Virus record (IMG/VR): IMGVR_UViG_3300010344_001272
Location: 11,046-75,045 of that record
Direction: 5' to 3' (one strand)
Source of the DNA: a virus
Lineage: Duplodnaviria > Heunggongvirae > Uroviricota > Caudoviricetes
Length of the DNA: 64,000 bases
Below the pieces are notes generated by a model, which saw only the letters and a list, made by a program, of their open reading frames with translations, searched no databases and had not been told where the DNA came from. Shown here one piece after another: positions 786-39,094 of this stretch. Position numbers and translations under genes: made by a program. Each line of letters opens with the position of its first letter. Position 1 is the first letter of the stretch.

Positions 786-2474
786 ATGACACACACGATG
801 AAAAAATTGACATTTTTATTTATGATTGGTATCATTTTTCTCTTTTCGTGCGAGAAAATAGAAGATACCCCCACCCTGCCCCTTGAATTTACTGTTAGTA
901 TAACAAATGTTTCTATTTTTGGAGGAAGCGATGGAAAAATAGTTATAAATGTAACTTCCGGGGTACCTCCTTACTCTTATAAAATTGGAAGTTCTAATCA
1001 ATCATCCAATGAGTTTTGTAATCTTGTAAGCGGCATATATACTATTACCGTAACAGACAGTAAACAACAAGTTTTATCTAATAATGTTACTATTACAGAA
1101 CCACCTGAAACACCCAAAGTAACCGTTATAAAAAAGGATATAACTTGCAAAGGTTCTAATAATGGTATCATACATATCTATCCTGTTGAATCGTTTCAAT
1201 ATTCGATTAATGGAGGAAATTGGGGTCAATTAAATACTTTTAATAATCTTGCACCTGGTATTTATAACATTAAAGTAAAAGACGGCAGTTCTAATATAGT
1301 TTTCAATGAAAATATATCAATTATTGAACCAAATATTGTTAATGCCATTATTACTTCAACGAATATCACTTGCTTTGGCGCGAATGACGGAACAATTATA
1401 ATTTCTTCTCCAACAGGTGGGTACGGGACGTATCAATATTCTATTGATGGAGGAACTAATTGGTCATCAACAACACAATTTTATAATCTTACTCCAAATA
1501 CTTATAATGTATGGATTCGAGACGCCTCTATTCCGAATTATACATGCATTAGCGGATGTCAAGATATAGTTTTTCCTAATGAAAATCCACCAACTTATTG
1601 TCAATTAATTCTTGGCAGTATTAATATCACACAACCACAAGTTCTTAATGCTGTAGTTACATCTTCAATAATAACGAATGTAGGCGATAATAATGGTATT
1701 ATAAACATATTATCAGCAAGTGGGGGGTCAGGCGTTTATGAATATAGTATTAATGGCGGAACAACTTGGAAAACTTCAGGATATTTTAATAACCTAGTGC
1801 CAGGAAAATATGATGTGTATCTTAAAGATGCCGTTACAGGATGTGTTAAAATACTTAATTCTTGTGTAATAAAAGAACCGACTTACGTTAAAAATTTAAT
1901 TGATTTTACGTTGGCCAGTTATAATAAAGAAACTATTTCAACTGAAGTTTCAGCCTATGTAAATACAATTAACGGTACTAATAAATTTTCCATATCATTT
2001 TGGTATAACACACCCACTTCTACATTGAATAAAAACAATCCAACTTGGACATCTGCTAGATTATTGTCATCCGATCATACATCTAATCCTAGCAATGAAG
2101 CTACTACTTGGATAGAAATTAATAATACTGATTATCAAAATACCGACCCAGATGATCCTATCAAAGCCAAAATCGAATATGGTAGAATTAAAGCTAATCC
2201 ATTAACTACCGATAAGATTACTTTAAATAGTAGAACTGTATGGTCAGGATTACATCATATCGTGGTTATATTCGATGGTTTTAAAATAAAAATGTATATT
2301 GATAATGTTCTAATTAATGAAGTTTCATCTTCAATAAGTTTGAATATCAATAAAATTTATTTTGGCGGTCATGAAAGTAATACCAACTACGAGTACAATG
2401 GCATCATAAGTAAGATAAAAATTTACAACGACGCTATAACTCCAGTCGAAGTAGATTATCTGTTTAAAAATTAA
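786..2474 (+). CDS. SprB-repeat lipoprotein with C-terminal LamG/ConA-like lectin domain (adhesin or receptor-binding candidate)
   Basis: N-terminal MKKLTFLFMIGIIFLFSC lipobox; four repeats of the type (C/I)xGxxDGxI...GGxxPYxYSI(N/D)GG typical of SprB repeats; C-terminal block resembling concanavalin/LamG fold. Confidence 0.6.
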   Translation: MTHTMKKLTFLFMIGIIFLFSCEKIEDTPTLPLEFTVSITNVSIFGGSDGKIVINVTSGVPPYSYKIGSSNQSSNEFCNLVSGIYTITVTDSKQQVLSNNVTITEPPETPKVTVIKKDITCKGSNNGIIHIYPVESFQYSINGGNWGQLNTFNNLAPGIYNIKVKDGSSNIVFNENISIIEPNIVNAIITSTNITCFGANDGTIIISSPTGGYGTYQYSIDGGTNWSSTTQFYNLTPNTYNVWIRDASIPNYTCISGCQDIVFPNENPPTYCQLILGSINITQPQVLNAVVTSSIITNVGDNNGIINILSASGGSGVYEYSINGGTTWKTSGYFNNLVPGKYDVYLKDAVTGCVKILNSCVIKEPTYVKNLIDFTLASYNKETISTEVSAYVNTINGTNKFSISFWYNTPTSTLNKNNPTWTSARLLSSDHTSNPSNEATTWIEINNTDYQNTDPDDPIKAKIEYGRIKANPLTTDKITLNSRTVWSGLHHIVVIFDGFKIKMYIDNVLINEVSSSISLNINKIYFGGHESNTNYEYNGIISKIKIYNDAITPVEVDYLFKN

Positions 2475-2498
2475 TAATTTAAGTTATCAAATATCAAA

Positions 2499-2527
2499 TG
2501 GAGATCAAAAGGTCTCCATTTTTTTTG
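2499..2527 (+). terminator. Rho-independent terminator
   Basis: TGGAGATC aaaa GGTCTCCA followed by T8. Confidence 0.65.
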
Positions 2528-2787
2528 AAAAAAAGTGCTCAAAAATTTTTTTATTTCACGAATATGTATTATAATTGCAACATATTTATTGAAAAAAATT
2601 GCAATAACTTAAAACTTTTTTAAACGAGTTCATAATATATAGAAAAAATCAACAGATGCAGAAACAAGGCTTAAATATAGTCGTAGCGAATTGGGTGGCC
2701 AATGATGATAACAAAGGTCGTAGAGGAGTTATGCGTCCCGTTGAGGATATAATTGATTGGTGAAAAACAACAATTAAGAATAAATCA

Positions 2788-2822
2788 ACGGGAACTCCAA
2801 AAAGGTTCCCGTTTTTATTTTA
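2788..2822 (+). terminator. Rho-independent terminator after a 35-codon micro-ORF (2656-2763)
   Basis: CGGGAAC loop GGTTCCCG then TTTTTATTTT. Confidence 0.5.
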
Positions 2823-2848
2823 AGTTCTTTGACATATTGCTTTCTTTC

Positions 2849-2922
2849 GCGGGTGTAGCACAGTGGTAGTGCAGGAGCCTTCCAAGCTTCTGACGTGAGT
2901 TCGATTCTCATCACCCGCTCCA
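2849..2922 (+). tRNA. tRNA-Gly(TCC), CCA encoded
   Basis: hand fold: acceptor GCGGGTG/CACCCGC 7/7, D stem GCAC/GTGC, anticodon stem GGAGC/GCTTC, loop CTTCCAA, T loop TTCGATT. Confidence 0.85.
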
Positions 2923-2942
2923 ATTACTGTAGTGACTGGAAT

Positions 2943-3019
2943 GGGTTACTTCGTGCTAAATGGTTTAGCAATTGTCTCTTAAACAATGGTTGCGGTTCAA
3001 ATCCGCCTGTTACCCTCCA
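2943..3019 (+). tRNA. tRNA-like, degenerate; anticodon arm reads Lys(CTT)
   Basis: perfect anticodon arm ATTGT-CTCTTAA-ACAAT and D stem TGCT/AGCA, T loop TTCAAAT, CCA end, but acceptor GGGTTAC/GTTACCC has a T-T mismatch and spacing between arms is off by 1-3 nt. Confidence 0.3.
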
Positions 3020-3038
3020 AATTTTCTCAGTAATTAAT

Positions 3039-3126
3039 GGTCTCAGGAGCTGCTAGGTGTGGCTGCCGGCCTGTCACGCCGGAACGACTAATAATCGACA
3101 GGAGGGTTCGAACCCCTTTGGGACCG
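3039..3126 (+). tRNA. 88-nt type-II-like tRNA with 19-nt variable arm; anticodon loop CTGTCAC reads GTC (Asp)
   Basis: acceptor GGTCTCA/TGGGACC 7/7 with one wobble, D stem AGCT/GGCT, anticodon stem CCGGC/GCCGG, T arm GAGGG-TTCGAAC-CCCTT; long variable arm is unusual for GTC. Confidence 0.45.
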
Positions 3127-3156
3127 CTAACCGTAGTGATAGAACAGAGTTTCATC

Positions 3157-3229
3157 GTGAAAATAACTCAATAGATAGAGTGTATTGCTTCTAACAATAA
3201 GGTCGCTGGTTCGACTCCAGCTTTTTACT
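3157..3229 (+). tRNA. tRNA-Arg(TCT)
   Basis: acceptor GTGAAAA/TTTTTAC with one wobble, D stem ACTC/GAGT, anticodon stem TATTG/CAATA, loop CTTCTAA, T arm GCTGG-TTCGACT-CCAGC; D loop lacks GG. Confidence 0.7.
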
Positions 3230-3261
3230 AAAAAGGCTCTTTCTGGTTTTCTCGGTTAAAC

Positions 3262-3333
3262 AGGGGTATGGTGTAATGGTTAGCATGTTTCTCTCCAAAA
3301 GAAATGATCTGGGTTCGAGTCCTGGTACCCCTG
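3262..3333 (+). tRNA. tRNA-Trp(CCA)
   Basis: acceptor AGGGGTA/TACCCCT, anticodon stem TTTCT/AGAAA, loop CTCCAAA, T loop TTCGAGT. Confidence 0.8.
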
Positions 3334-3363
3334 CTAATCAAATCCAAAACTTTTAGTTCAAAT

Positions 3364-3382
3364 GGATATATAATATAAAAAT
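3364..3382 (+). promoter_or_regulatory. T4-late-like promoter motif GGATATATAATATAAAAAT
   Basis: one of at least seven similar ATATATAA(A/T)AAAA boxes 8-25 nt upstream of start codons. Confidence 0.4.
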
Positions 3383-3389
3383 ATCCTCT

Positions 3390-4052
3390 ATGAATTGCGA
3401 AAATTGCGGAAATAAACATGATGGAACTTATGGTTCTGGAAGATTTTGTTCATCTAAATGTGCTAGAGGTTTTAGTACAAAAACAAAAAGAAAGGAAATT
3501 AACCAAAAGGTAAGTAAAAAACTAAAGAAGAATTTTCTGGAAATAAAAACTTGCCCATGTGGAAAAACGTTTGAAACTTCAAATAAAAAAAGATATTGTT
3601 CTTCTTCTTGTGGAAGTCATTATTCTCAGTTAGGAAAAAATAAGAAAAAAGGGATAGAAAGAAAACAAGGATCGGGGGGATTAAGACCTGGTGGAGGTAA
3701 ATCAAAACAAATTCCATACACAAATTGGCTAGGTTTTAAAATGTTTCTTAACACAGAAGAAATAGAAGTAGCAAAAATACTTGATGAGAAAAAATTAAAT
3801 TGGGATAGAAACAGAAAAGGCTTTCCTTATTTAATGCGAAATGGAAAACAAAGAAAATATTATCCTGATTTTGTAGTAAATGGAAACAAATACATTGAAT
3901 ACAAAGGGTGGGTTACTGAAGAAATGGAATGGAAAATGAACGATGCAGTTAAAACTAATAATCTAAATTTGAATATTATAGTCGGAACAGACCCTCGATA
4001 CCAGAGATTCGGTATAACCTTAAAAGAATTAAAAAATGGAAAAAGCTTTTAA
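3390..4052 (+). CDS. putative homing-type endonuclease (N-terminal zinc ribbon, C-terminal YYPDF...IEYKGW PD-(D/E)xK-like motif); paralog of 17118-17750
   Basis: CxxC...CxxxC at N-terminus, basic middle, conserved C-terminal block shared with second copy; sits inside tRNA array. Confidence 0.4.
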   Translation: MNCENCGNKHDGTYGSGRFCSSKCARGFSTKTKRKEINQKVSKKLKKNFLEIKTCPCGKTFETSNKKRYCSSSCGSHYSQLGKNKKKGIERKQGSGGLRPGGGKSKQIPYTNWLGFKMFLNTEEIEVAKILDEKKLNWDRNRKGFPYLMRNGKQRKYYPDFVVNGNKYIEYKGWVTEEMEWKMNDAVKTNNLNLNIIVGTDPRYQRFGITLKELKNGKSF

Positions 4053-4236
4053 ATTTTTTCAAGAATTAATTAAAAGACCTGTTATTAAATCTAAAAAAAT
4101 TAATTTTGGTCCGTATTTCGAAACAAGACGGCGAATTGGGGAAAACAAAGTTACGAGAAATCAGGATCAATTAAAGGATTTTTTTGATGCGGTAATAATA
4201 GAACAAGATATTTTCGAAAAAGAGAAACGCGTATAA
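4036..4236 (+). CDS. hypothetical protein
   Basis: 66-aa ORF. Confidence 0.25.
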   Translation: MEKAFKFFQELIKRPVIKSKKINFGPYFETRRRIGENKVTRNQDQLKDFFDAVIIEQDIFEKEKRV

Positions 4237-4289
4237 TCTAACGAATAACTTGGTTAGTCTGGGGCATCGAGAACCTCTATACGCACCAC

Positions 4290-4363
4290 GGGCTGTTAGC
4301 TCAGATGGCTAGAGCGCCTGCCTTGCAAGCAGGAGGCCAAGGGTTCGACTCCCTTACGGTCCA
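4290..4363 (+). tRNA. tRNA-Ala(TGC)
   Basis: acceptor GGGCTGT/ACGGTCC with two wobbles, D arm GCTC-AGATGGCTA-GAGC, anticodon stem CCTGC/GCAGG, loop CTTGCAA. Confidence 0.85.
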
Positions 4364-4424
4364 CTACAGACAGACTGTTAAATTTTCATAGTAACCGTGA
4401 CGACGGGTTTCATAGAAAATTAAC

Positions 4425-4498
4425 GCCTTCGTGGCGCAATTGCGTAGCGCTACTCCCTCTTAAGGAGAAGGTTAAGGGTTCGAGTCCCTTCGGAGGCA
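4425..4498 (+). tRNA. tRNA-Lys(CTT)
   Basis: acceptor GCCTTCG/CGGAGGC, D arm GCGC-AATTGCGTA-GCGC, anticodon loop CTCTTAA, T arm AAGGG-TTCGAGT-CCCTT; A-A mismatch at 27-43. Confidence 0.7.
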
Positions 4499-4506
4499 CA
4501 AATGCC

Positions 4507-4613
4507 GGATGATACACTGTTTTATCACAGTGCCGGCTCCAAGGGCGATACGTGGTGGTTGGTTGCCGGCCCCACCCAGTTGGTTATCATGGGTTCGATC
4601 CCCATATCGTCCA
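4507..4613 (+). tRNA. atypical 107-nt tRNA-like gene
   Basis: perfect acceptor GGATGAT/ATCGTCC, D arm ACTG-TTTTATCA-CAGT, T arm ATGGG-TTCGATC-CCCAT, but the anticodon region is a GCCGGC...GCCGGC stem enclosing 27 nt plus a 19-nt variable region; packed in the tRNA array with 3-8 nt spacers. Confidence 0.3.
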
Positions 4614-4618
4614 CAAAT

Positions 4619-4695
4619 AGTGCGTTAGTTCAGTTGGTTAGAATATCAGACTGTCACTCTGAGGGTCGCGAGTTCGAGTCTCGTACGCACTGCCA
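4619..4695 (+). tRNA. tRNA-Asp(GTC), CCA encoded
   Basis: acceptor AGTGCGT/ACGCACT 7/7, D arm GTTC-AGTTGGTTA-GAAT, anticodon stem TCAGA/TCTGA, loop CTGTCAC. Confidence 0.85.
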
Positions 4696-4702
4696 TAGAA
4701 TC

Positions 4703-4759
4703 TGTAGTAAGAATAGAGTTTCATCGTGGTAAACATTGGTTCGAATCCAATACCGAGCG
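4703..4759 (+). other. conserved tRNA-junction motif followed by an isolated tRNA 3' fragment (T arm ATTGG-TTCGAAT-CCAAT plus acceptor strand ACCGAGC-G)
   Basis: motif TGTAGTAAGAATAGAGTTTCATCGTGG as in three other sites; no D or anticodon arm and no complementary 5' acceptor strand nearby. Confidence 0.3.
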
Positions 4760-4801
4760 CATTGCTTAGTAATTAAACTCTTTTCAACTTTCTCAGATTA
4801 C

Positions 4802-4877
4802 GGGGAGTTAGCTCAGCAGGTAGAGCGACGGACTGTTAATCCGCAGGTCATGGGTTCGATCCCCTTACTCCCCGCCA
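4802..4877 (+). tRNA. tRNA-Asn(GTT), CCA encoded
   Basis: acceptor GGGGAGT/ACTCCCC 7/7, D arm GCTC-AGCAGGTA-GAGC, anticodon loop CTGTTAA. Confidence 0.75.
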
Positions 4878-4888
4878 AATTTCAAACG

Positions 4889-5143
4889 ATGGATGAATTA
4901 TTAGAGATTATCGAAAGATTAAAAGAAGAGAATGAAGATTTGAAATCAAGATTGATTGATCTTACATTTGAAATGAATTACAATAAACAAACAGAATTGA
5001 TTGAGTTTGTTCGTTCAATTTATTCAAGTATCGAACAGGAAATGAATTTCAAAACAAGAAGTAAGTTATCCAAGAGCCAAATGCTCTATAGTTTGAAAAA
5101 GAACATTGAAGAATTTGCTAAAAACAATAAAATAGCATTATGA
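4889..5143 (+). CDS. hypothetical coiled-coil protein
   Basis: ORF-track frame 4736-5143 overlaps tRNA-Asn; first ATG after the tRNA is at 4889 (MDELLEIIERLKEENEDLK...). Confidence 0.4.
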   Translation: MDELLEIIERLKEENEDLKSRLIDLTFEMNYNKQTELIEFVRSIYSSIEQEMNFKTRSKLSKSQMLYSLKKNIEEFAKNNKIAL

Positions 5144-5571
5144 AACTTTATCGATACAGTGTTACATCTTCAAGACATGGTGCAATTCCACACGTTGAGT
5201 TACAATCGTATGATGTTAAAAAGGAAACAAATAAAGGATATTGGATTAGTTTGTATTGGGGAAGTGATAAGAAATGGGTTTCAAAAGATGGATTGCGAAG
5301 ATTTGCATTTCCAACAAAGTATCAAGCAATGCAGAATTTTATAAAGCGAACTGAGAAACGTGTAAAATATTTAGAAATAGATTTACAAGCATGCCAAGTT
5401 GGTTTGCAGTCTGCAAAAAGAATACAAGAAGATATTTCTGAAGATGATGATGTTGTAACATTATATCATATTTTAAAACTGCGGGGTAGAGCAGCGGTAG
5501 CTCGTGAGGCCCATAACCTCAAGGTCGAGGGTTCGAACCCCTTCCCCGCTACAAATGGCGAGAAAGTTTAG
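5140..5571 (+). CDS. hypothetical protein; 3' end reads through tRNA-Met
   Basis: 143-aa ORF; last 30 codons coincide with a well-folding tRNA so the true stop may be misplaced or the overlap is real. Confidence 0.35.
   Translation: MKLYRYSVTSSRHGAIPHVELQSYDVKKETNKGYWISLYWGSDKKWVSKDGLRRFAFPTKYQAMQNFIKRTEKRVKYLEIDLQACQVGLQSAKRIQEDISEDDDVVTLYHILKLRGRAAVAREAHNLKVEGSNPFPATNGEKV
5480..5551 (+). tRNA. tRNA-Met(CAT), possibly initiator (1-72 T-T mismatch)
   Basis: D arm GAGC-AGCGGTA-GCTC, anticodon stem TGAGG/CCTCA, loop CCCATAA, T arm GAGGG-TTCGAAC-CCCTT, acceptor TGCGGGG/CCCCGCT with 1-72 mismatch. Confidence 0.7.
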
Positions 5572-5682
5572 AAAAAGGCTCTTATTAGCTTTCTCATTTC
5601 GGTGTAGTAATTATGAGAGTTTCATCGGAAAAACGTCAAGCTCATAACTTGAAGATCGTTGGTTCAAATCCAGCTCTCGCCA
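5557..5682 (+). tRNA. tRNA-like Met/Ile2(CAT) gene with about 60-nt insertion in the D loop that contains the conserved junction motif
   Basis: acceptor GGCGAGA/TCTCGCC 7/7, D stem GTTT/AAAC, anticodon arm TCAAG-CTCATAA-CTTGA 5/5, T arm GTTGG-TTCAAAT-CCAGC; the canonical parts are interrupted only inside the D loop. Confidence 0.4.
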
Positions 5683-5706
5683 CACTCACTTTTTGTTCCT
5701 TGGCTA

Positions 5707-5722
5707 TGATATATAAATAAAA
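5707..5722 (+). promoter_or_regulatory. T4-late-like promoter motif GATATATAAATAAAAA
   Basis: immediately upstream of GIY-YIG gene. Confidence 0.4.
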
Positions 5723-5729
5723 ATGTATC

Positions 5730-6284
5730 ATGCCAAGGAAACCAAAAGTGTATCATGTTCTTTACAAAACAACTTGTTTAGTGACAAATCGATATTATAT
5801 TGGAATGCACTCAACAAATGATTTAAATGATGGATATTTAGGAAGTGGAACAAGATTAAGATATTCTATTAAGAAATACGGAATTGAAAATCATAAGTTT
5901 GAAATTTTAGAAAACCTTCCCGATAGAAGTTCTTTGAAATTAAGAGAAAAGGAAGTTGTTAATGAAGAATTAATTAAGGATGTTAATTGTATGAATTTAA
6001 AATGCGGGGGTGAAGGAGGAGGAAAATTTTGGAATAAAGAACACCAGAAAAAATGTTCTATTGCAGGAGCCCTTGCTGTGTTACCTATTAGAAGACAATA
6101 TCATCTTGATAAATTAAAAACAGATCCAGAATATAGAAAAAAATACAAACAATCACTAAGTAAAGCACTATCAGGTGAAAAAAATCCTTTTTATGGAAAA
6201 CATCATACAGAAGAAACAAAACAAAAAATGAGAAAACCTCATAAAACATATAAAAAACGAAAAGCAAAAATCATGACCTCGTAA
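5730..6284 (+). CDS. GIY-YIG homing endonuclease
   Basis: N-terminal KVYHVLYKTTCLVTNRYYIGMHST...GYLGSG GIY-YIG module; paralog at 18204. Confidence 0.75.
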   Translation: MPRKPKVYHVLYKTTCLVTNRYYIGMHSTNDLNDGYLGSGTRLRYSIKKYGIENHKFEILENLPDRSSLKLREKEVVNEELIKDVNCMNLKCGGEGGGKFWNKEHQKKCSIAGALAVLPIRRQYHLDKLKTDPEYRKKYKQSLSKALSGEKNPFYGKHHTEETKQKMRKPHKTYKKRKAKIMTS

Positions 6285-6347
6285 CTCAGTTGGTAGAGTA
6301 CCACACTTTTAATGTGGGAGTCGTGAGTTCGAGTCTCACCGGGGTCA
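6275..6347 (+). tRNA. tRNA-Lys(TTT)
   Basis: acceptor GACCTCG/CGGGGTC, D arm ACTC-AGTTGGTA-GAGT, anticodon stem CCACA/TGTGG, loop CTTTTAA, T arm GTGAG-TTCGAGT-CTCAC. Confidence 0.85.
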
Positions 6348-6363
6348 CAATGATTAGAGTATT

Positions 6364-6593
<230 letters not shown>

Positions 6594-6671
6594 CACTGGA
6601 TGCCGATTGCCGGGGGAGGTATGTTCCCTGATTTGACGGCTATTATCAAAGTGCGGGCATGAAATCCTTTC

Positions 6672-6749
6672 GGAAGATTAGCTCAGTTGGTTCAGAGCAC
6701 TTGCCTTACAAGCAAGGGGTCGTGGGTTCGAATCCCTCATCTTCCACCA
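6672..6749 (+). tRNA. tRNA-Val(TAC), CCA encoded
   Basis: acceptor GGAAGAT/ATCTTCC, D arm GCTC..GAGC, anticodon stem CTTGC/GCAAG, loop CTTACAA. Confidence 0.85.
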
Positions 6750-6760
6750 AATAATTTGAT

Positions 6761-7267
6761 ATGGATTTTAAAGAATTTCCAATCAGACAACAAATGAACA
6801 GACATGATTGTTCAGTATGTGTCATTTGGTGTATACTTAGATATGCTGGAATAGATATTACTTACAGAGATTTATATCGCTTCATTCATCCTCCAATAGG
6901 CCCTAATGATGGGGTTTCTGGAGAACAAGTAATGAAAATACTTAGAAGTTTTGGAATTAATGTTGTTTCAGAAACTAGTAATATTTCAAAATTAAGAATT
7001 GATACAAATAATTGGCCCGTAATAGTCAGTATACAACACAAGAAAAAAAGAAATGTTGATTGGAAAAACATAATCGAATTTGGACATTATGTAATTGTTT
7101 TAAAAGTTGATGATAAAAAAGTAAAATTCATGGATCCAAATTATGGAAAGATAAGGTCTTTAAATATTAAAGATTTTAAAGACAGATGGCATGATGGAGA
7201 TGAAAATGAACTTTGTAAATATCCAGCAATCATATGTATGGTAAATGAATCGAAATCTATACTTTAA
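6761..7267 (+). CDS. putative papain-like cysteine peptidase (C39-like)
   Basis: N-terminal HDCSVCVIWCILRYAGI and later GHYVIVLKV...DPNYG match Cys/His arrangement of C39 peptidase domains. Confidence 0.45.
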   Translation: MDFKEFPIRQQMNRHDCSVCVIWCILRYAGIDITYRDLYRFIHPPIGPNDGVSGEQVMKILRSFGINVVSETSNISKLRIDTNNWPVIVSIQHKKKRNVDWKNIIEFGHYVIVLKVDDKKVKFMDPNYGKIRSLNIKDFKDRWHDGDENELCKYPAIICMVNESKSIL

Positions 7268-7559
7268 GGATGGTGTTCTTTTTGCTAAGGGCTACGAAAG
7301 AGTGGTTCACGGAGGGCGAGGAGATTATATAGAGTTAACTAAAGATCAAATAGTTGTAGAACTTAGATCAAAATTTAAACAATCACTTCCGGAAGCCGTT
7401 TCTGACGAGCCCTTTTATTACTACTGGTTGGTTCCAATTGGAAGAGAAGAAAAAATTTACTGGCAGTGCAGAACTGTAAATTATGCAGATTACAAAATAG
7501 GATATTATTATATAAGTCCTAAGTTAATTATACCATTTGATAGTACAGAATTATTTTAA
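7245..7559 (+). CDS. hypothetical protein
   Basis: 104-aa ORF. Confidence 0.3.
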   Translation: MNRNLYFKDGVLFAKGYERVVHGGRGDYIELTKDQIVVELRSKFKQSLPEAVSDEPFYYYWLVPIGREEKIYWQCRTVNYADYKIGYYYISPKLIIPFDSTELF

Positions 7560-7571
7560 TAAATAAGATAT

Positions 7572-7931
7572 ATGGAAGACAAAGATTTAGATATTAGAAT
7601 CACTCGGGGATCAGGCCCAGGGGGACAACATAAAAACAAGGTGGAAACTTGTGTTATTATAACTCATATTCCAACTGGTTTACAAGAGAAGTGTCAAGAA
7701 ACTCGTAGTAAAATTCAGAATCTTGAACTTGCTAAAGAAAGAATTAAAGCGAAAGTAGAGAAACTACAAGAGCAAAAAATTCAAGAGGCAAAAAATGAAC
7801 GCAGACGTGAATTAATTAAAAACCAGAAAGTAGTTCGTACATATAACTTTGTAAGAAATGAAGTTTATGATCATCGGACAAAAACAAAACACGATCTGAA
7901 AAAGTTTATGAGAGGAGAAATTGATCTATGA
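7572..7931 (+). CDS. arfB: ArfB-like peptidyl-tRNA hydrolase / class I release factor GGQ domain protein
   Basis: ITRGSGPGGQHKNKVETCV GGQ motif block followed by basic C-terminal tail. Confidence 0.75.
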   Translation: MEDKDLDIRITRGSGPGGQHKNKVETCVIITHIPTGLQEKCQETRSKIQNLELAKERIKAKVEKLQEQKIQEAKNERRRELIKNQKVVRTYNFVRNEVYDHRTKTKHDLKKFMRGEIDL

Positions 7932-8119
7932 AACTTACACTCGAAAAAGATATAAAAGTAGCTGTTGAAGTAAATGGTGAAAAATTCATTGGATCCGAAG
8001 AGGGAATTTTATACCAAAGTATTACAGATACAGAAATTTTACTTTATATTAAAACAGAACCTGAAGGAAAAGAAATAAAAATTAAAATAGCAAAAGATGT
8101 TAATAATCAAGGTGCATGA
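7928..8119 (+). CDS. hypothetical small protein
   Basis: 63-aa ORF, overlaps start of bS21 gene in another frame. Confidence 0.25.
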   Translation: MKLTLEKDIKVAVEVNGEKFIGSEEGILYQSITDTEILLYIKTEPEGKEIKIKIAKDVNNQGA

Positions 8120-8297
8120 GGGTGAAAATATTGACAAAGCCCTTAAGAGATTCAAAAGAAAATTCAACATGATTGGAGTTGCTAGTGAATTACGTGAAAG
8201 AGAACAATTCACAAAGCCTTCTGTAAAAAAGAGGCAAATAAAACAGAAAGCTAAATACAGACAATACATGCAGAGAAAAGAAGAAATGGGCGAATAA
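8097..8297 (+). CDS. rpsU: ribosomal protein bS21
   Basis: MLIIKVHEGENIDKALKRFKRKFNMIGVASELREREQFTKPSVKKRQIK matches the S21 family pattern over its full length. Confidence 0.8.
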   Translation: MLIIKVHEGENIDKALKRFKRKFNMIGVASELREREQFTKPSVKKRQIKQKAKYRQYMQRKEEMGE

Positions 8298-8301
8298 CAA
8301 T

Positions 8302-8377
8302 GGTTCGGTAGCTCAATGGATAGAGCAACAGCCTTCTAAGCTGTCGGTTGAGCGTTCGAGTCGCTCCCGAATCACCA
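8302..8377 (+). tRNA. tRNA-Arg(TCT), CCA encoded (second copy of this anticodon)
   Basis: acceptor GGTTCGG/CCGAATC, D arm GCTC-AATGGATA-GAGC, anticodon stem ACAGC/GCTGT, loop CTTCTAA. Confidence 0.85.
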
Positions 8378-8393
8378 ATTTAAATTTTCATTT

Positions 8394-8876
8394 ATGACAG
8401 CACTTTATATTATAATGTTAACCATATTTGTTGGTTATATTTCATGGATATGGGCCAGATATGGTGTATTACCATCTATTTCCCATAGTTATTATTCACT
8501 TCCCGACAATCTTAAATTTATATTTACTTTATGGTCTTGGGGATATGCAATTCCAGCTATCATTGTAGCTTCAACACCATTAATGTTTTTTGCCGGGGCG
8601 GGAATTTGTTTTGTAGGTGCGGCAGCAGCGTATCGAGAAAAAATGACCGAGACTGTTCATATAATTGGAGCAGCATGCGCAATTATTTTTAGTCAATTAT
8701 CTATAATAATCGATTTTGATATGTGGTATGTTACGGTTGCTTTTGCTGCAATTGCTTTACCACTTGCCTTAACAAGATTTTCAAAGAAAGGAATATGTCC
8801 AAATAGAACTTGGTGGGTTGAAATTTTAGCATTTATAACAATAGCTTTAGTATTAGGAATAAAATTATGGTCGTAA
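8394..8876 (+). CDS. polytopic membrane protein
   Basis: about 5 hydrophobic helices. Confidence 0.4.
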   Translation: MTALYIIMLTIFVGYISWIWARYGVLPSISHSYYSLPDNLKFIFTLWSWGYAIPAIIVASTPLMFFAGAGICFVGAAAAYREKMTETVHIIGAACAIIFSQLSIIIDFDMWYVTVAFAAIALPLALTRFSKKGICPNRTWWVEILAFITIALVLGIKLWS

Positions 8877-9142
8877 AGTTGGTATCATATGATGGTTCAT
8901 ATCCAAACTTATGTAGTGGTAAGTTAATTCTTTCTGTTGATGAAAAGGAATGGGTTTTTCCATCATATTGTTTATCAAGTGGCGGCAGCGTATGGTTTGA
9001 CAATGACTGGAGTGAACATGTTGAAGATGGTCCTTGGGGTATAGGTGAATGGCCTGAAGGTTTTCCTGAAGAAGCTAAGGAAGAAGCTTTAAGTGTTATT
9101 AACGAAGAAATTTCCTGGGGTTGTTGCGGAGGATGTGTATGA
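8867..9142 (+). CDS. hypothetical protein
   Basis: 91-aa ORF with C-terminal CCGGC. Confidence 0.3.
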   Translation: MVVKLVSYDGSYPNLCSGKLILSVDEKEWVFPSYCLSSGGSVWFDNDWSEHVEDGPWGIGEWPEGFPEEAKEEALSVINEEISWGCCGGCV

Positions 9143-9384
9143 CAGCGCAAGAATACATAGATGCTTGGGATATAAGATGGGAAAATCATTTTAGATACTC
9201 TGTTTTAGTTGAAGAATTAAGTAATTTACAAGGAATTGATGTAGTTGCCCAGATGGAATCTGTTTTAATAGCCGAAATGACTAAGGAGGTTGACAAACAT
9301 ATACAAAACGATATACAGAGATTATTTAATATGAGTATACAACAATCAGAAAAAATTAACACAATAGTCGATGGAATCCTATAA
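9121..9384 (+). CDS. hypothetical protein
   Basis: 87-aa ORF. Confidence 0.3.
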   Translation: MLRRMCMTAQEYIDAWDIRWENHFRYSVLVEELSNLQGIDVVAQMESVLIAEMTKEVDKHIQNDIQRLFNMSIQQSEKINTIVDGIL

Positions 9385-10003
9385 TTCCATACCAAAATGG
9401 AGTGAAGATTATTTTGGCAAATATGTATTCGCATTTGACAAAATAGACGGTTCCAATTTCAGAGCTGAATGGAATCGAAAATTATCTAAAAAATCCCGCT
9501 TTACATATGGTTTTGGAAAATTTGGAACCAGACAAGACAGAATAAAATTTATTAAAGATCCATATTGTGAAGGTATTGAAATATTTAAAAACAAATTTTC
9601 GGAAAAATTAGATAAGATATTCTTAGAAAACAAAACGTTTAGAAACATTGATAATATCACAGTATTTGGAGAATTTTATGGATCTAAAAGCTTTGCTGGA
9701 ATGCATGATTGGAGTGAAAAACATGATGTCAAAATTTTTGATGTATTTTTAGATAGAAAAGGAATTTTGCCCCCATCTGATTTTATAAAAATATTTGAAG
9801 GATTAGATACATGCAAACTTATATTTGCGGGAATTTTTTCTCAAAGTTATTTAGAGTTAATTGAAAAAAATATATTAAATTTACAAGAAGGAGTTGTTTG
9901 TAAAGGGGTTGAAAACCAAGAGGTATTCATGTTCAAAATAAAAACACTGAAATGGCTTCAGAAGGTAAGAGATTTATATGGTAATGAAAGAACTGATTAT
10001 TAG
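9371..10003 (+). CDS. ATP-dependent RNA ligase, Rnl2-like nucleotidyltransferase domain only
   Basis: motif I KIDGSNFRAEW, motif III FGEFYG, motif IV EGVVCKG, motif V FKIK. Confidence 0.6.
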   Translation: MESYNSIPKWSEDYFGKYVFAFDKIDGSNFRAEWNRKLSKKSRFTYGFGKFGTRQDRIKFIKDPYCEGIEIFKNKFSEKLDKIFLENKTFRNIDNITVFGEFYGSKSFAGMHDWSEKHDVKIFDVFLDRKGILPPSDFIKIFEGLDTCKLIFAGIFSQSYLELIEKNILNLQEGVVCKGVENQEVFMFKIKTLKWLQKVRDLYGNERTDY

Positions 10004-10262
10004 ATCGGCAATTACAGTTGACGAACTTGTTCTTCAATGGGAAGCAAAACAAGAGTTACGATTTATTTTTGATGGATTTCCTCAATTAAATATACTTCGT
10101 CCAACTGCATCATTGATCGCAAATGATTTAGTTTCAGTACAACCCATGGCAGCTCCTACAGGAGTATTCCATTATATAGAATATGTTTATAATGGAACCC
10201 CAGATAGACCGTTTAATGAAATGCAACATGATTGCGGAATTGAAAAAACTTTAAGTGAATGA
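9978..10262 (+). CDS. 94-aa ORF homologous to the N-terminal conserved core of gp23-family major capsid proteins (fragment or mini-paralog)
   Basis: LVSVQPMAAPTGVFHYIEYVYNG aligns with VNVVPMPGPTGVISYLDYVYAGG of the full capsid gene at 39095 and with T4 gp23 ICGVQPMNSPTGQVFALRAVYG. Confidence 0.4.
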   Translation: MVMKELIIRSAITVDELVLQWEAKQELRFIFDGFPQLNILRPTASLIANDLVSVQPMAAPTGVFHYIEYVYNGTPDRPFNEMQHDCGIEKTLSE

Positions 10263-10444
10263 AGAACTATAAATCTAAAAGAAAAGATTTAAGAGATCGA
10301 AAAAGAGAGATAATGGAAGTTGGATTTGACTCTTCAAAAGATAGAAAAAGAGTTGTTGAATCCTTTAAAAGAGAATCTCGTTCATTGAAAAGAAGTGAAA
10401 AGAATTCTTTCAAGAATTCTTGGAGAAGTGAATACGGTATTTAA
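10259..10444 (+). CDS. hypothetical basic protein
   Basis: 61-aa K/R-rich ORF. Confidence 0.2.
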   Translation: MKNYKSKRKDLRDRKREIMEVGFDSSKDRKRVVESFKRESRSLKRSEKNSFKNSWRSEYGI

Positions 10445-10521
10445 GGCCTTATAGCTCAATTGGATAGAGCACCTGACTACGGATCAGGAGGTTATGGGTT
10501 CGACTCCCTTTAAGGTCACCA
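10445..10521 (+). tRNA. tRNA-Arg(ACG), CCA encoded
   Basis: acceptor GGCCTTA/TAAGGTC, D arm GCTC-AATTGGATA-GAGC, anticodon stem CCTGA/TCAGG, loop CTACGGA. Confidence 0.85.
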
Positions 10522-16805: not shown

Positions 16806-16895
16806 GGAGGTGTAAAGCGTAATTGCGTATCGCCCCGGTCCCGAAAACCGGTTCCGTCGTAAGATGGAGTGTAGGTTCGAGTCCTATCGCCTCCG
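16806..16895 (+). tRNA. tRNA-Ser(CGA), type II
   Basis: acceptor GGAGGTG/CGCCTCC, anticodon stem CCGGT/ACCGG, loop CCCGAAA, variable-arm stem TCCGTC/GATGGA, T arm GTAGG-TTCGAGT-CCTAT. Confidence 0.7.
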
Positions 16896-17117: not shown

Positions 17118-17750
17118 ATGGCAAGAAAATCAAGAAAATTTATTTGTGAAAAATGTGGAAATGAATTTGAATCAAAAAGAAAAGATGTTAGATTTTGTTC
17201 TAATAGTTGCAGGGCTTCAATTATAAATATGGGTAGAAAACCATTTAATTTTGTTGAAGGAAAAATTAGATATTGTTTAACATGCGGAAAAAAACTTCAT
17301 CATCAAACTAAAACAGGATATTGTGTTGACCATTATGTAACAGATGATTTTAAAGACAAAATTAGCAAAGGCGTTAAAAAAATAGGTGGGGGCGGATATC
17401 GAAAAAACTCAGGAAGAGGTAAACATGGGTGGTATAAAGGATTTTGGTGTGACAGTAGTTGGGAATTAGCTTGGGTTATTTATAATTTAGATCACGGAAT
17501 AAAATTTGAACGTAATACTAAAGGATTTGAATATATTTTTGAGGAAAAAATTTATAAATATTATCCAGATTTTAAAATATTAAAAGACAATTTGTACATA
17601 GAAATAAAAGGATGGATAGATGAAAAAAACAAAGCAAAAATTTCTCAATTTAAAGGTTTTTTAAAGGTATTATTTAGAAATGACATGAAATATATTTTTG
17701 AATACGTTGAAAATAAATACGGAAAACAATTTATAAAAATGTATGAATAA
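17118..17750 (+). CDS. putative homing-type endonuclease, paralog of 3390-4052
   Basis: N-terminal CEKCGNEFESKRKDVRFCSNSC zinc ribbon and C-terminal YYPDFKILKDNLYIEIKGW block. Confidence 0.4.
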   Translation: MARKSRKFICEKCGNEFESKRKDVRFCSNSCRASIINMGRKPFNFVEGKIRYCLTCGKKLHHQTKTGYCVDHYVTDDFKDKISKGVKKIGGGGYRKNSGRGKHGWYKGFWCDSSWELAWVIYNLDHGIKFERNTKGFEYIFEEKIYKYYPDFKILKDNLYIEIKGWIDEKNKAKISQFKGFLKVLFRNDMKYIFEYVENKYGKQFIKMYE

Positions 17751-39014: not shown

Positions 39015-39094
39015 TTTTCTGCACTACGTTATAAAAGTGCCGAAATGGTAAAAAATAAATAGATAAAATAAAAATTAAAATTAATTAAAAGATC

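What the first reader, a model, noticed from the sequence alone, without database searches (positions are those of the whole stretch)
3131..5632. Conserved 30-nt motif at four tRNA junctions, twice associated with 5'-disrupted tRNA genes
The sequence GTAGT(A/G)A-N(5-7)-AGAGTTTCATCG occurs at 3131-3156, 4703-4734 and 5600-5632, with a diverged copy at 4388-4420 (GGGTTTCATAG). At 3131 it runs directly into the 5' acceptor strand of tRNA-Arg. At 4388 it lies 5 nt upstream of tRNA-Lys(CTT). At 4703 it is followed only by a T arm plus 3' acceptor strand, a tRNA remnant with no 5' half. At 5600 it sits inside the D loop of an otherwise perfect tRNA(CAT). This pattern fits a promoter/processing signal, a small mobile insertion that targets tRNA genes, or leaders of split tRNA halves.
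Basis: seen in the sequence. Interest (0 to 1): 0.7.

Follow-up and report, generated by a model that had tools for sequence, protein, structure and literature searches.

The report
Phage Y-RNA-like module fused to tRNAs
The repeated 25-nt motif is the 5' half of a conserved folded RNA module that phages encode next to their Ro60 (RNA quality-control) gene and inside tRNA gene arrays, here fused to tRNAs and tRNA fragments; it looks like a new type of Ro60-associated 'Y RNA', not a promoter or a split-tRNA leader.

Summary
The motif is real. GTAGTRA-N4-6-AGAGTTTCATCG occurs exactly at 3133-3157, 4704-4726 and 5604-5627 (0 expected). A missed diverged copy lies at 2929-2953. The 4388 copy is doubtful.

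The motif is half of a bipartite element. Each copy has a partner, CUCU-N-RAUUUUCUC, at 3013-3028, 3237-3253, 4778-4794 and 5579-5595. The halves pair (P2/P3, with an AGAG:CUCU core), the outer flanks pair (P1), and GUAGURA and AUUUUCUC form a conserved internal loop. All 12 modelled pairs covary across 106 distinct copies.

A variable cargo sits between the halves: nothing, a T-arm minihelix (4727-4777), a tRNA-like body (2954-3012) or a whole tRNA-Arg (3157-3229). In tRNA(CAU) 5557-5682 the module is circularly permuted and sits in the D loop.

A covariance model finds more than 150 copies in phage contigs, always on the tRNA strand. It finds essentially none in cellular genomes, and no Rfam family matches.

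In the reciprocal test, 78 phage loci chosen only for a Ro60/TROVE gene gave 56 hits. All were on the Ro60 strand, and most lay 80-600 nt upstream.

Best reading: a new family of phage Y-RNA-like, Ro60-associated RNAs, some built as tRNA chimeras. Ro60 binding is inferred, not shown.

The parts
2921..3036 (+). Module unit 1 (diverged). P1 5' AATTACT 2922-2928. 5' half (motif A) 2929-2953. tRNA-like cargo 2954-3012 with D, anticodon (CUU) and T arms and no canonical acceptor. 3' half (motif B) CCCT-CCA-AAT-TTTTCTC 3013-3028. P1 3' AGTAATT 3029-3035.
   Evidence: CM R1 hit, 39.8 bits, full model, not in the training set. Rfam tRNA model matches only positions 10-63 at 2955-3006 (34.8 bits). The MFE fold gives P1/P2/P3 enclosing a cloverleaf body, z = -2.8.
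3125..3261 (+). Module unit 2. P1 5' TAACC 3128-3132. Motif A 3133-3157. Complete tRNA-Arg(TCT) 3157-3229 as cargo. A-rich linker 3230-3236. Motif B CTCTTTCTGGTTTTCTC 3237-3253. P1 3' GGTTA 3254-3258.
   Evidence: Exact motif. CM hit 42.8 bits. tRNA called by ARAGORN and Rfam. B motif.
4696..4802 (+). Module unit 3. P1 5' AATCT 4699-4703. Motif A 4704-4726. Cargo 4727-4777 is a T-arm minihelix (UGGU/ACCG plus T arm 4735-4751). Motif B CTCTTTTCAACTTTCTC 4778-4794. P1 3' AGATT 4795-4799.
   Evidence: Exact motif. CM hit 51.0 bits. The MFE fold recovers P1 and P2/P3. The same cargo class occurs in L005, L008, L014, L017, L021, L073 and L129.
5557..5682 (+). tRNA(CAU)-module chimera. tRNA 5' part 5557-5571 (acceptor GGCGAGA, D-stem GUUU, A14 G15). 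A-rich linker 5572-5578. Motif B 5579-5595. 8-nt cap AU-UUCG-GU 5596-5603, which replaces P1. Motif A 5604-5627. tRNA 3' part 5627-5682 (G18 G19 .. AAAC, anticodon loop CUCAUAA 5641-5647, T arm, acceptor UCUCGCC, A).
   Evidence: Sequence. B-8nt-A arrangement. In-silico deletion restores an ARAGORN tRNA-Met(CAT). Conserved in L001, L014, L075, L129, L420 and L481, with covarying P2 and tetraloop caps UUCG, GUAA and UUAG.
4388..4415 (+). Doubtful motif-like sequence ATAGTAA-N10-GGGTTTCATAG in the 60-nt spacer between tRNA-Ala and tRNA-Lys. Probably not a family member.
   Evidence: No CM hit at E<=10. No B partner. Folds as its own hairpin, stem 4381-4387 with 4415-4421, z = -1.5.

Best explanation
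The motif is the 5' strand of a roughly 60-nt structured RNA module. Its layout is: P1 (5-7 bp, any sequence), then GUAGURA, then P2/P3 5' strand (NNN-AGAG), then UUWCWUCG, then a variable cargo, then an A-rich linker, then P3/P2 3' strand (CUCU-YYY), then RAUUUUCUC, then P1'. The two conserved single-stranded boxes face each other as a large internal loop between two covarying helices.

The module belongs to a phage-specific family of small RNAs that are encoded beside, and on the strand of, a phage Ro60/TROVE gene, and also as extra copies in tRNA-gene slots. I read these as Y-RNA-like RNAs. The stem plus internal loop would be the handle bound by the phage Ro60 ring. The apical cargo would be the second, effector-facing part, as in bacterial YrlA RNAs, whose second domain mimics tRNA.

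In this window the cargo is a T-arm minihelix, an acceptor-less tRNA body and a complete tRNA-Arg. In a fourth copy the module is circularly permuted and grafted into the variable pocket (positions 16-17) of the D loop of a tRNA(CAU), leaving G18, G19 and A21 in place.

Shown here: the bipartite motif, its fold (covariation), its phage restriction, its synteny with Ro60 genes, and the fusion topologies. Inferred: that Ro60 binds it. Also inferred: that the tRNA-like parts act as tethers or decoys for tRNA-binding factors, or put phage tRNAs under Ro60 control.
For: (1) Bipartite motif and pairing. There are 0 chance matches, and a B partner lies at every good copy.
(2) P1. 77% of 60 units picked without regard to P1 have at least 4 contiguous pairs, against 11% in a permuted control.
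(3) Covariation on the 39-sequence alignment: 90% of cells paired, covariation 0.49 against 0.14 shuffled, 0 of 500 shuffles.
(4) Covariation on 106 distinct CM-aligned copies: 12 of 12 pairs show compensatory changes, 91.8% paired against 64% shuffled, score 0.73 against at most 0.17 for slid controls.
(5) CM R1 finds an untrained window copy, 111 copies in 54 viral loci and 97 in the first 100 loci.
(6) Among 120 pattern matches in GTDB genomes, only one 15-kb contig has true units.
(7) Invariant loop nucleotides in 106 of 106 copies.
(8) The second most common neighbouring gene is a 540-570-aa TROVE protein. Its profile matches the solved Ro60s: Thermus phage phiLo Ro60 at E = 3e-41 over full length, plus Xenopus and human Ro60 and Deinococcus Rsr.
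(9) Reciprocal test. In 78 loci fetched only by TROVE homology there were 56 CM hits in 42 loci. All 56 were on the TROVE strand. 46 were upstream, 26 of them 83-576 nt from the start codon.
(10) 14 of the 32 modules within 700 nt of TROVE have no tRNA within 1 kb, so the Ro60 link does not depend on tRNA arrays.
(11) The published 635-kb phage LR745206.1 has a module 390 nt upstream of its TROVE gene.
(12) The window's close relative (contig 3300044580_000329, 78-92% identical over window 1889-10507) encodes this Ro60 with two modules just upstream.
(13) Precedent. Y RNAs lie within 4 kb of Ro60 on the same strand, and YrlA has a tRNA-like domain (PMC4201824). phiLo Ro60 binds two RNAs encoded upstream of its gene (PMC12135203).
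Against: No Ro60/TROVE gene lies in the 64-kb window itself (tblastn). By comparison with the relative it should lie more than 4 kb upstream of the window start, but that is an extrapolation.

The known bacterial and phage Ro-binding signature (GNCGAAN0-1G, or CGAA near the 5' end) is absent. The module has an invariant UCG, followed by AA in only about a third of copies.

Rfam's YrlA model does not hit any copy, even at E<=5.

Binding has not been tested. Synteny would also fit a cis-regulatory element of the Ro60 mRNA for the proximal copies.

The CM-based alignments lean towards the modelled structure.

G-U and A-C counts in P1 are equal (5 and 5), so P1 alone does not prove the RNA strand. 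Strand assignment rests on P2/P3 G-U pairs, on constant co-orientation with tRNAs and on the Ro60 strand.
Confidence: 0.68

Rival explanations
1. Pre-tRNA leader/trailer processing cassette. The paired flanks clamp the ends of weak, AU-rich phage tRNAs and direct RNase P, RNase E, RNase III or a phage nuclease. Copies without a tRNA are decayed tRNA slots. The Ro60 link is indirect.
For: Units sit exactly in tRNA slots, 0-3 nt from neighbouring tRNAs. The G ending CWUCG is nucleotide +1 of the enclosed tRNA in the window (3157), in L120 and in L063. The enclosed acceptor stems are weak (GUGAAAA/UUUUUAC).
Against: 55 of 106 distinct copies have cargos under 45 nt with no T loop, yet they keep every invariant loop nucleotide. 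14 Ro60-proximal copies have no tRNA within 1 kb. In the D-loop chimera and the closed-acceptor forms the module is not a leader or trailer at all.
Confidence: 0.13
2. A phage tRNA intron and permuted-gene splicing motif, analogous to the archaeal and red-algal bulge-helix-bulge system. Cuts at the cargo/module junctions followed by ligation would remove the D-loop insert and circularise permuted cargos.
For: The same motif occurs as A-cargo-B and as B-A inside a tRNA. In-silico removal restores a canonical tRNA-Met(CAT) with G18 and G19. Rotated long cargos are recognised as tRNAs by ARAGORN. An RNA ligase gene (PF09414) lies in the array at 9371-10003.
Against: There is no bulge-helix-bulge geometry. 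No splicing endonuclease candidate was found. The permuted tRNA-like cargos close their acceptor stem with a UUCG tetraloop or a short loop, leaving no free 3' end, and some keep an intact anticodon arm, so ligation would not yield a usable tRNA (read directly). Half the copies enclose no tRNA parts. The RNA ligase family neighbours only 3 of 54 loci.
Confidence: 0.08
3. A new small self-cleaving ribozyme that trims tRNA array transcripts, by analogy with HDV-like theta ribozymes next to phage tRNAs.
For: It has highly conserved internal-loop nucleotides between covarying helices, sits beside tRNAs, and shows a weak resemblance to RAGATH-30 in one copy (19.4 bits). Theta ribozymes show that phage tRNA arrays do use ribozymes (PMC10879173).
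Against: No Rfam ribozyme family matches. RAGATH-30 is far below threshold and absent from other copies. The fold is a simple nested stem, not an HDV-like double pseudoknot. The Ro60 synteny is left unexplained.
Confidence: 0.05
4. A DNA-level signal: a phage promoter, a homing-endonuclease target, or the inverted-repeat ends of a small mobile element that inserts into tRNA genes.
For: Homing endonuclease genes are interspersed in the array (3390-4052, 5730-6284). P1 is an inverted repeat with equal G-T and A-C counts.
Against: No promoter-like site lies at the motif. P2/P3 keep pairing through G-U (AGAG to GGGG in L014). The strand is always that of the tRNAs and of Ro60 (56 of 56). There is no uninterrupted target orthologue. 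P1 is replaced by RNA tetraloops in the permuted form.
Confidence: 0.03

Closest known systems
Bacterial/phage Y RNAs of the YrlA type (Chen et al. 2014, PMC4201824; Rfam RF02553)
   Same: Small RNAs encoded within a few hundred nt to a few kb of a Ro60/TROVE gene, on the same strand. The 5' and 3' ends form a stem with an internal loop. The second domain is often a tRNA mimic with D and T arms. Some copies (e.g. L062:793, L087:7779) have a closed acceptor stem and exit near the anticodon/D junction, as YrlA does.
   Different: The conserved sequences differ: GUAGURA / AGAG-UUWCWUCG / CUCU / RAUUUUCUC instead of GNCGAAN0-1G. The Rfam YrlA model does not detect them. There are many copies per genome, placed in tRNA slots. 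The cargo ranges from nothing to a complete tRNA. The module can flank a real tRNA or be grafted, permuted, into a tRNA D loop.
Thermus phage phiLo Yrl1/Yrl2 with phiRo60 (PMC12135203; PDB 9KOP, 9L5Y)
   Same: The neighbouring protein family here is most similar to phiRo60 among solved structures (E = 3e-41). One or two small structured RNAs lie directly upstream of the phage Ro60 gene, the same layout as L277, L266 and L261.
   Different: The phiLo RNAs were defined by a CGAA motif in a stem-bulge. Binding was shown there and not here. No tRNA fusions were reported.
Permuted and intron-containing tRNA genes processed through a bulge-helix-bulge motif (archaea, Cyanidioschyzon)
   Same: One flanking motif is used both around permuted tRNA-like cargos and inside a tRNA at a non-canonical position (the D loop).
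   Different: There is no BHB geometry and no known endonuclease in bacteria or phages. The permuted cargos have capped acceptor stems. Most copies carry no tRNA parts.
T4 stable RNAs C and D (rnaC/rnaD) at the end of the T4 tRNA cluster
   Same: Small stable non-tRNA RNAs that occupy slots in the tRNA array of a T4-like phage. rnaC ends in a T arm plus acceptor-like stem.
   Different: No sequence motif is shared, and CM R1 finds nothing in the T4 tRNA region. T4 has no Ro60.

Membership tests
Y RNA (Ro60-associated ncRNA, functional class) | Encoded close to, and on the same strand as, a Ro60/TROVE gene | tested here: met
   Family level: 56 of 56 CM hits are on the TROVE strand in 78 TROVE-anchored loci, and 32 lie within 700 nt. 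29 motif-anchored loci carry TROVE. Window level: no TROVE within the 64 kb, but the 78-92%-identical relative contig carries it.
Y RNA (Ro60-associated ncRNA, functional class) | 5' and 3' ends pair into a stem interrupted by a conserved bulge or internal loop; size about 70-130 nt | tested here: met
   P1 and P2/P3 covary. Units are 63-149 nt long. MFE folds of Ro60-proximal copies give the same architecture.
Y RNA (Ro60-associated ncRNA, functional class) | Physically bound by Ro60 | not testable with these tools
   Needs EMSA, RIP or a structure determined with the phage Ro60.
YrlA (Rfam RF02553) | Scores at or above the family's gathering threshold with the Rfam covariance model | tested here: not met
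   No YrlA hit on any module, at gathering or at E<=5. The only YrlA row in the window is a 27-bit match across two adjacent tRNA-Arg genes.
YrlA (Rfam RF02553) | GNCGAAN0-1G motif near the 5' end | tested here: not met
   The 5' conserved box is GUAGURA. The nearest analogue is CWUCG, with an invariant UCG. The base after the G is A in 27 and U in 49 of the 76 copies aligned at that column. CGAA occurs in 7 of 20 Ro60-proximal copies.
YrlA (Rfam RF02553) | tRNA-like domain with D and T arms and a closed acceptor, entered through the anticodon-stem equivalent | tested here: inconclusive
   True of a subset only (L062:793, L075:9298, L087:7779, L092:3187). It is not true of the window copies, and 55 of 106 copies have no tRNA-like part.
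tRNA intron / permuted tRNA gene with bulge-helix-bulge splicing motif | Bulge-helix-bulge (3-4-3) structure at the exon-intron junctions | tested here: not met
   The junctions are flanked by UUWCWUCG and an A-rich linker next to a 7-8-bp helix. The only internal loop is about 7 x 9 nt and is distal.
tRNA intron / permuted tRNA gene with bulge-helix-bulge splicing motif | Removal of the insert yields a canonical tRNA; spliced product exists | tested here: inconclusive
   In-silico removal gives an ARAGORN tRNA-Met(CAT). Whether splicing happens cannot be tested here. No uninterrupted orthologue exists in IMG/VR.
Known self-cleaving ribozymes (hammerhead, HDV-like/theta, twister, twister-sister, hatchet, pistol) and RAGATH-30 | Match to the family covariance model or core | tested here: not met
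   No ribozyme family at E<=1-10. RAGATH-30 scores 19.4 bits against a gathering score of 59.5 in one copy only.
Sigma-70-type promoter | -35/-10 hexamers with proper spacing at the motif, on the tRNA strand | tested here: not met
   None of the 19 promoter-like sites in 2300-6800 coincides with a motif copy on the + strand.

The most novel reading that the evidence does not exclude
The module is a portable Ro60-binding handle that phages graft onto tRNAs. On this reading the tRNA(CAU), tRNA(AAC) and 8-nt-loop chimeras (module in D-loop positions 16-17, all tertiary nucleotides kept, CCA encoded in L075) and the module-flanked tRNA-Arg are working tRNA-Y RNA hybrids. They would bring a Ro60 RNP to tRNA-binding machinery or to host anticodon nucleases, or place phage tRNAs under Ro60 surveillance or protection. 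That would be a kind of RNA not described before. A still more radical variant is that the same motif directs a protein-independent or phage-specific cut-and-ligate reaction, that is, tRNA splicing and permuted tRNA genes in bacteriophages.
Probability: 0.25. Interest if true: 0.85.

Novelty: new variant of a known kind. Interest (0 to 1): 0.62.

Why it matters
Ro60 and its Y RNAs are conserved from bacteria to humans, but their job in phages is nearly unknown. Only one phage Ro60-RNA pair has been studied biochemically. One screen noted a Ro60-like anti-defence gene sitting upstream of 'tRNA' genes and guessed that some of them might be Y RNAs.

This element gives that guess a concrete, searchable form. 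It has a defined sequence and structure signature, more than 150 examples, a covariance model, and a clear prediction: the phage Ro60 binds the GUAGURA/AUUUUCUC loop.

It also shows that many unannotated gaps, 'pseudo-tRNAs' and 'disrupted tRNAs' in phage tRNA arrays are one family of structured RNAs. Natural fusions of that module with tRNA bodies, including an insertion into the D loop, exist and are conserved.

This bears on three areas: how phages counter tRNA-targeting defences, genome annotation, and RNA engineering (a natural tRNA scaffold with a protein handle).

Tried and rejected
- Hammerhead, hairpin, k-turn/C-D box and sarcin-ricin readings of GUAGURA and AGAGUUUCAUCG were compared by eye with the known cores. 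None fits, and none is supported by Rfam.
- RAGATH-30 was a lead from one sub-threshold hit. It was not reproduced on seven other loci. No text on it could be found.
- An early P2 model (GAGAA:UUCUC) was dropped because most copies read GUAGUAAC. Covariation instead supports NNN-AGAG:CUCU-NNN.
- A GUAA:UUAC local hairpin or pseudoknot, and the reading of UAG-URA as tandem stop codons, were noted. No covariation or context supports either.
- ARAGORN on rotated long cargos confirms tRNA shape. Because many junctions are accepted, it cannot define a splice junction.
- The T4 tRNA region (rnaC/rnaD) was fetched and searched: no motif.
- No close relative of the window exists among 50,697 GenBank phage records; only tRNA-level matches were found. 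The Ro60 family has no close homologue among cultured phages either (best 34.7%, in an uncultured 635-kb phage).
- A search for an uninterrupted version of the chimeric tRNA scaffold gave 47 matches, none of them a tRNA.
- The loose pattern for B-8nt-A is mostly noise: 111 of 117 matches lack the rest of motif A.
- The metagenome-contig scan, structure prediction and the large protein searches were not used, because they would not have changed the conclusion.

Full report
**1. The observation**

The window's first 18 kb is a phage tRNA array: ARAGORN tRNAs, all on the + strand. Homing-endonuclease genes are interspersed.

The pattern GTAGTRA-N(3-9)-AGAGTTTCATCG matches exactly at 3133-3157, 4704-4726 and 5604-5627. 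It never matches in 100 dinucleotide shuffles.

- G3157 is both the last motif base and base 1 of tRNA-Arg(TCT) 3157-3229.
- 4727-4777 contains only a T arm and an acceptor-like stub.
- The 5604 copy lies in the D loop of a tRNA(CAT) at 5557-5682. ARAGORN misses this tRNA, but calls a canonical 73-nt tRNA-Met(CAT) after 5572-5626 is deleted in silico.

The 4388 'diverged copy' is not supported. There is no covariance-model hit at E<=10 and no partner motif. The sequence folds into its own insignificant hairpin.

**2. The motif is half of a bipartite folded element**

An exact-pattern scan of IMG/VR returned the motif in about 17 viral contigs. Printing the flanks showed a second conserved box downstream of a variable 'cargo': CTCT-N(4-10)-TTTTCTC. 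In the window this box lies at 3013-3028, 3237-3253, 4778-4794 and 5579-5595.

The two boxes pair.
- AGAG pairs with CUCU (P3).
- This helix is extended outward by 3-4 variable pairs (P2), often across a 1-nt bulge or mismatch.
- The sequences just outside GUAGURA and UUUCUC form a third helix (P1), whose sequence differs from copy to copy. Examples: AAUCU:AGAUU at 4699/4795, UAACC:GGUUA at 3128/3254, AAUUACU:AGUAAUU at 2922/3029.

The evidence for these helices is as follows.
- 60 units were picked by the two boxes alone, without regard to P1. Of these, 77% have at least 4 contiguous P1 pairs, against 11% when downstream flanks are permuted among units.
- On a 39-sequence cargo-deleted alignment the 12 modelled pairs are 90% paired. 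Nine pairs show double changes, and covariation is 0.49 against 0.14 for shuffles (0 of 500).
- On 106 distinct copies aligned by the model, all 12 pairs show compensatory changes. Pairing is 91.8% against 64% shuffled. Covariation is 0.73 against at most 0.17 for slid registers. That alignment is fitted to the model, so it leans towards the structure.
- Independent RNAfold runs on copies found through a protein anchor give the same architecture.

The consensus is: P1, G-U-A-G-U-R-A, NNN(N)-AGAG, U-U-W-C-W-U-C-G, cargo, A-rich linker, CUCU-YYY(C), R-A-U-U-U-U-C-U-C, P1'. Eight loop positions are invariant in 106 of 106 copies.

**3. A covariance model and the distribution**

Model R1 recovers window units at 4696-4802 (51 bits), 3125-3261 (42.8 bits) and 2921-3036 (39.8 bits). 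The last was not in the training set.

- R1 finds 97 hits in the first 100 viral loci.
- It finds 26 more in the remaining loci.
- It finds 111 hits (106 distinct) in a 54-locus set.

Every locus checked is a tRNA array, and every unit is on the tRNA strand.

The same DNA pattern hit 120 stretches of GTDB bacterial and archaeal genomes. Only one of them, a 15-kb contig of a 'Peribacteria' MAG that is probably a phage, has real units. This also serves as a specificity control.

The T4 tRNA region has none.

No Rfam 15 family matches. A 19-bit resemblance to RAGATH-30 in one copy was not reproduced.

**4. What sits between the halves**

Cargo length runs from 4 to 95 nt among model hits, and up to 123-141 nt among units paired by the motif (regex) search.

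- 55 of 106 cargos are under 45 nt with no T loop. These are often a small D-arm-like hairpin followed by an A-rich run.
- 37 are 45-70 nt, and 35 of those carry a T loop.

The observed cargo classes are:
- T-arm minihelices (window 4727-4777);
- tRNA bodies with D, anticodon and T arms but no canonical acceptor (window 2954-3012), with varied anticodons on nearly constant stems;
- complete tRNAs whose nucleotide +1 is the G of CWUCG (window tRNA-Arg; L120; L063);
- circularly permuted type-II tRNA mimics whose acceptor stem is capped by a UUCG or other loop (L062:793, L075:9298, L087:7779, L092:3187).

**5. The D-loop chimera**

At 5557-5682 the order is reversed, and P1 is replaced by an 8-nt cap. 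The layout is: tRNA 5' part, A-rich linker, motif B, AU-UUCG-GU, motif A, tRNA 3' part.

The same tRNA scaffold (GGSGAGA-AA-GUUU...) with the same insertion occurs in at least 6 distinct contigs.
- The caps are AU-UUCG-GU/AU, AU-GUAA-AU and AU-UUAG-GU.
- P2 covaries: AUG/UAU, AAC/GUU, AUA/UGU.
- AGAG changes to GGGG, with pairing kept by G-U.
- The anticodon loops are CUCAUAA, AUAACAA or the 8-nt UUUGAAAU.
- One version encodes CCA.

The module enters between positions 15 and 18. After it the sequence always resumes G-G-N-A plus the D-stem 3' strand, so the tertiary G18, G19 and A21 are kept.

No uninterrupted version of this scaffold exists in IMG/VR. This is a dedicated chimeric gene, not a recently disrupted tRNA.

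**6. The Ro60 link**

I clustered all ORFs in the 54 module-positive loci. The second most frequent neighbour family is a 540-570-aa protein found in 19 loci by clustering and in 29 loci by tblastn.

- It has a Pfam TROVE domain scoring 34.7 bits, above the cut-off of 23.
- It matches phrog_850 'RNA-binding protein' at E = 1.5e-30.
- It has a C-terminal DxSGSM vWA motif.
- Its profile matches the solved Ro60 structures. Thermus phage phiLo Ro60 (9KOP/9L5Y) scores E = 3e-41 over the full length. Human and Xenopus Ro60 and Deinococcus Rsr also match.

I then ran the reciprocal test. 431 viral contigs encode a relative, and the best 80 loci were fetched by protein homology alone.
- R1 gave 56 hits (E<=1e-3) in 42 of the 78 loci searched, and all 56 were on the Ro60 strand.
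- 46 were upstream, 26 of them 83-576 nt from the start codon.
- 10 were downstream, mostly next to the divergent Ro60 clade.
- 32 hits lie within 700 nt of the gene. Of these, 14 have no tRNA within 1 kb, and five loci have no tRNA at all.

The link to Ro60 therefore does not follow merely from both features living in tRNA arrays.

The copies next to Ro60 are mostly the short, cargo-poor form.

The published 635-kb phage LR745206.1 has a unit 390 nt upstream of its TROVE gene.

The window has no TROVE gene. Contig IMGVR_UViG_3300044580_000329 is 78-92% identical to window 1889-10507 and carries the same chimera and T-arm unit. It encodes this Ro60 with two short units just upstream. By that synteny the window's own Ro60 gene should lie more than 4 kb before the window start.

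**7. Interpretation**

Y RNAs are defined by Ro60 binding. They are found next to Ro60 on the same strand, and they consist of a terminal stem with a conserved bulge or loop plus a second module. In bacterial YrlA that second module mimics tRNA (PMC4201824).

A phage Ro60 binds two such RNAs encoded upstream of its gene and with them engages host PNPase (PMC12135203).

A Ro60-like anti-defence protein of phage Bas63 sits upstream of 'tRNA' genes, which its authors suspected might be Y RNAs (bioRxiv 10.1101/2024.10.10.617714).

The present family fits the class by position, strand, size and architecture. It differs in three ways.
- Its conserved sequences differ.
- It fails the Rfam YrlA model and lacks the GNCGAA motif.
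- Its cargo is modular, including fusions to real tRNAs.

I therefore file it as a new variant of the Y-RNA kind, not as a YrlA member. Ro60 binding is inferred. What the tRNA parts do (tether, decoy, or client) is open.

**8. Rivals**

- A leader/trailer processing cassette (0.13) explains the +1 coincidence and the slot packing. It does not explain the cargo-less copies or the Ro60 synteny.
- A BHB-like splicing or permutation system (0.08) is attractive topologically. It lacks the defining geometry and an enzyme, and the capped acceptors argue against it.
- A new ribozyme (0.05) and DNA-level signals (0.03) have little support.

**9. Verdict**

The proposed mechanisms are not the best fit. 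The element is a real, widespread, previously uncatalogued structured RNA family of phages, most likely Ro60-associated.

Noticed in passing
window 3039-3127: An 89-nt tRNA-like gene with anticodon GUC and a long variable arm. ARAGORN calls it tRNA-Asp. Rfam gives only a 27-bit tRNA-Sec-like match and no tRNA hit. A type-II tRNA with an Asp anticodon is unusual. The same gene precedes module unit 2 in L002, L007 and L022.
   Followed up: no
window 4500-4618: Two uncalled structured elements lie between tRNA-Lys and tRNA-Asp. The first is a hairpin, GCCGG...CCGGC, followed by UCCA (4504-4541). The second is a tRNA-shaped sequence, GGGCGAU...AUCGUCC-A, with a G3:U70 pair and a T arm (4543-4613) that neither ARAGORN nor Rfam reports. 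The MFE fold supports both.
   Followed up: partly
window 16806-16894: A sub-threshold tRNA-Sec-like match (37.1 bits, gathering 47) inside the second tRNA cluster, between tRNA-Ser and tRNA-Ile.
   Followed up: no
window 9371-10003: A 210-aa RNA ligase (Pfam PF09414, 43.6 bits; phrog_548) is encoded inside the tRNA array. It may be relevant to tRNA repair. It neighbours the module in only 3 of 54 loci.
   Followed up: partly
window 3390-4052 and 17118-17750: The commonest neighbour family of the module (28 of 54 loci, often several copies) is a roughly 210-aa protein with Cys-rich zinc-finger repeats and a C-terminal YPDF...EYKG (PD-(D/E)xK-like) endonuclease domain (phrog_945, phrog_1271). 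It is probably a homing endonuclease that colonises tRNA arrays. 5730-6284 is a second homing endonuclease (NUMOD3, phrog_314).
   Followed up: partly
L096:1925-2100 and L062:464-639: A tRNA matched by Rfam over 176 nt (34.3 bits), with an insertion of about 100 nt after the anticodon stem that lacks the A/B motif. It may be a different tRNA intron in a module-bearing phage.
   Followed up: no
L082:2427-2793 and L083:6780-7120: Phage-encoded tmRNA genes (Rfam RF00023, 60.6 and 29.2 bits) lie in the same tRNA/Ro60 neighbourhoods as the module.
   Followed up: no
window 5705-5715, 36663-40852 and 786-2474: A T4-type late-promoter-like TATAAATA lies upstream of the homing endonuclease ORF. The window encodes a gp23-like major capsid protein and a gp21-like prohead protease, so it comes from a T4-like phage. 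An SprB-repeat protein at 786-2474 hints at a Bacteroidota host.
   Followed up: partly
window 4762-4770; L008, L017, L073, L129 cargos: T-arm-only cargos share a further conserved stretch, (A)UUGCUUAGUA, between the T arm and the CUCU box. It resembles the T4 MotA-box consensus, but the spacing to any -10 element does not fit. Its role is unknown.
   Followed up: no
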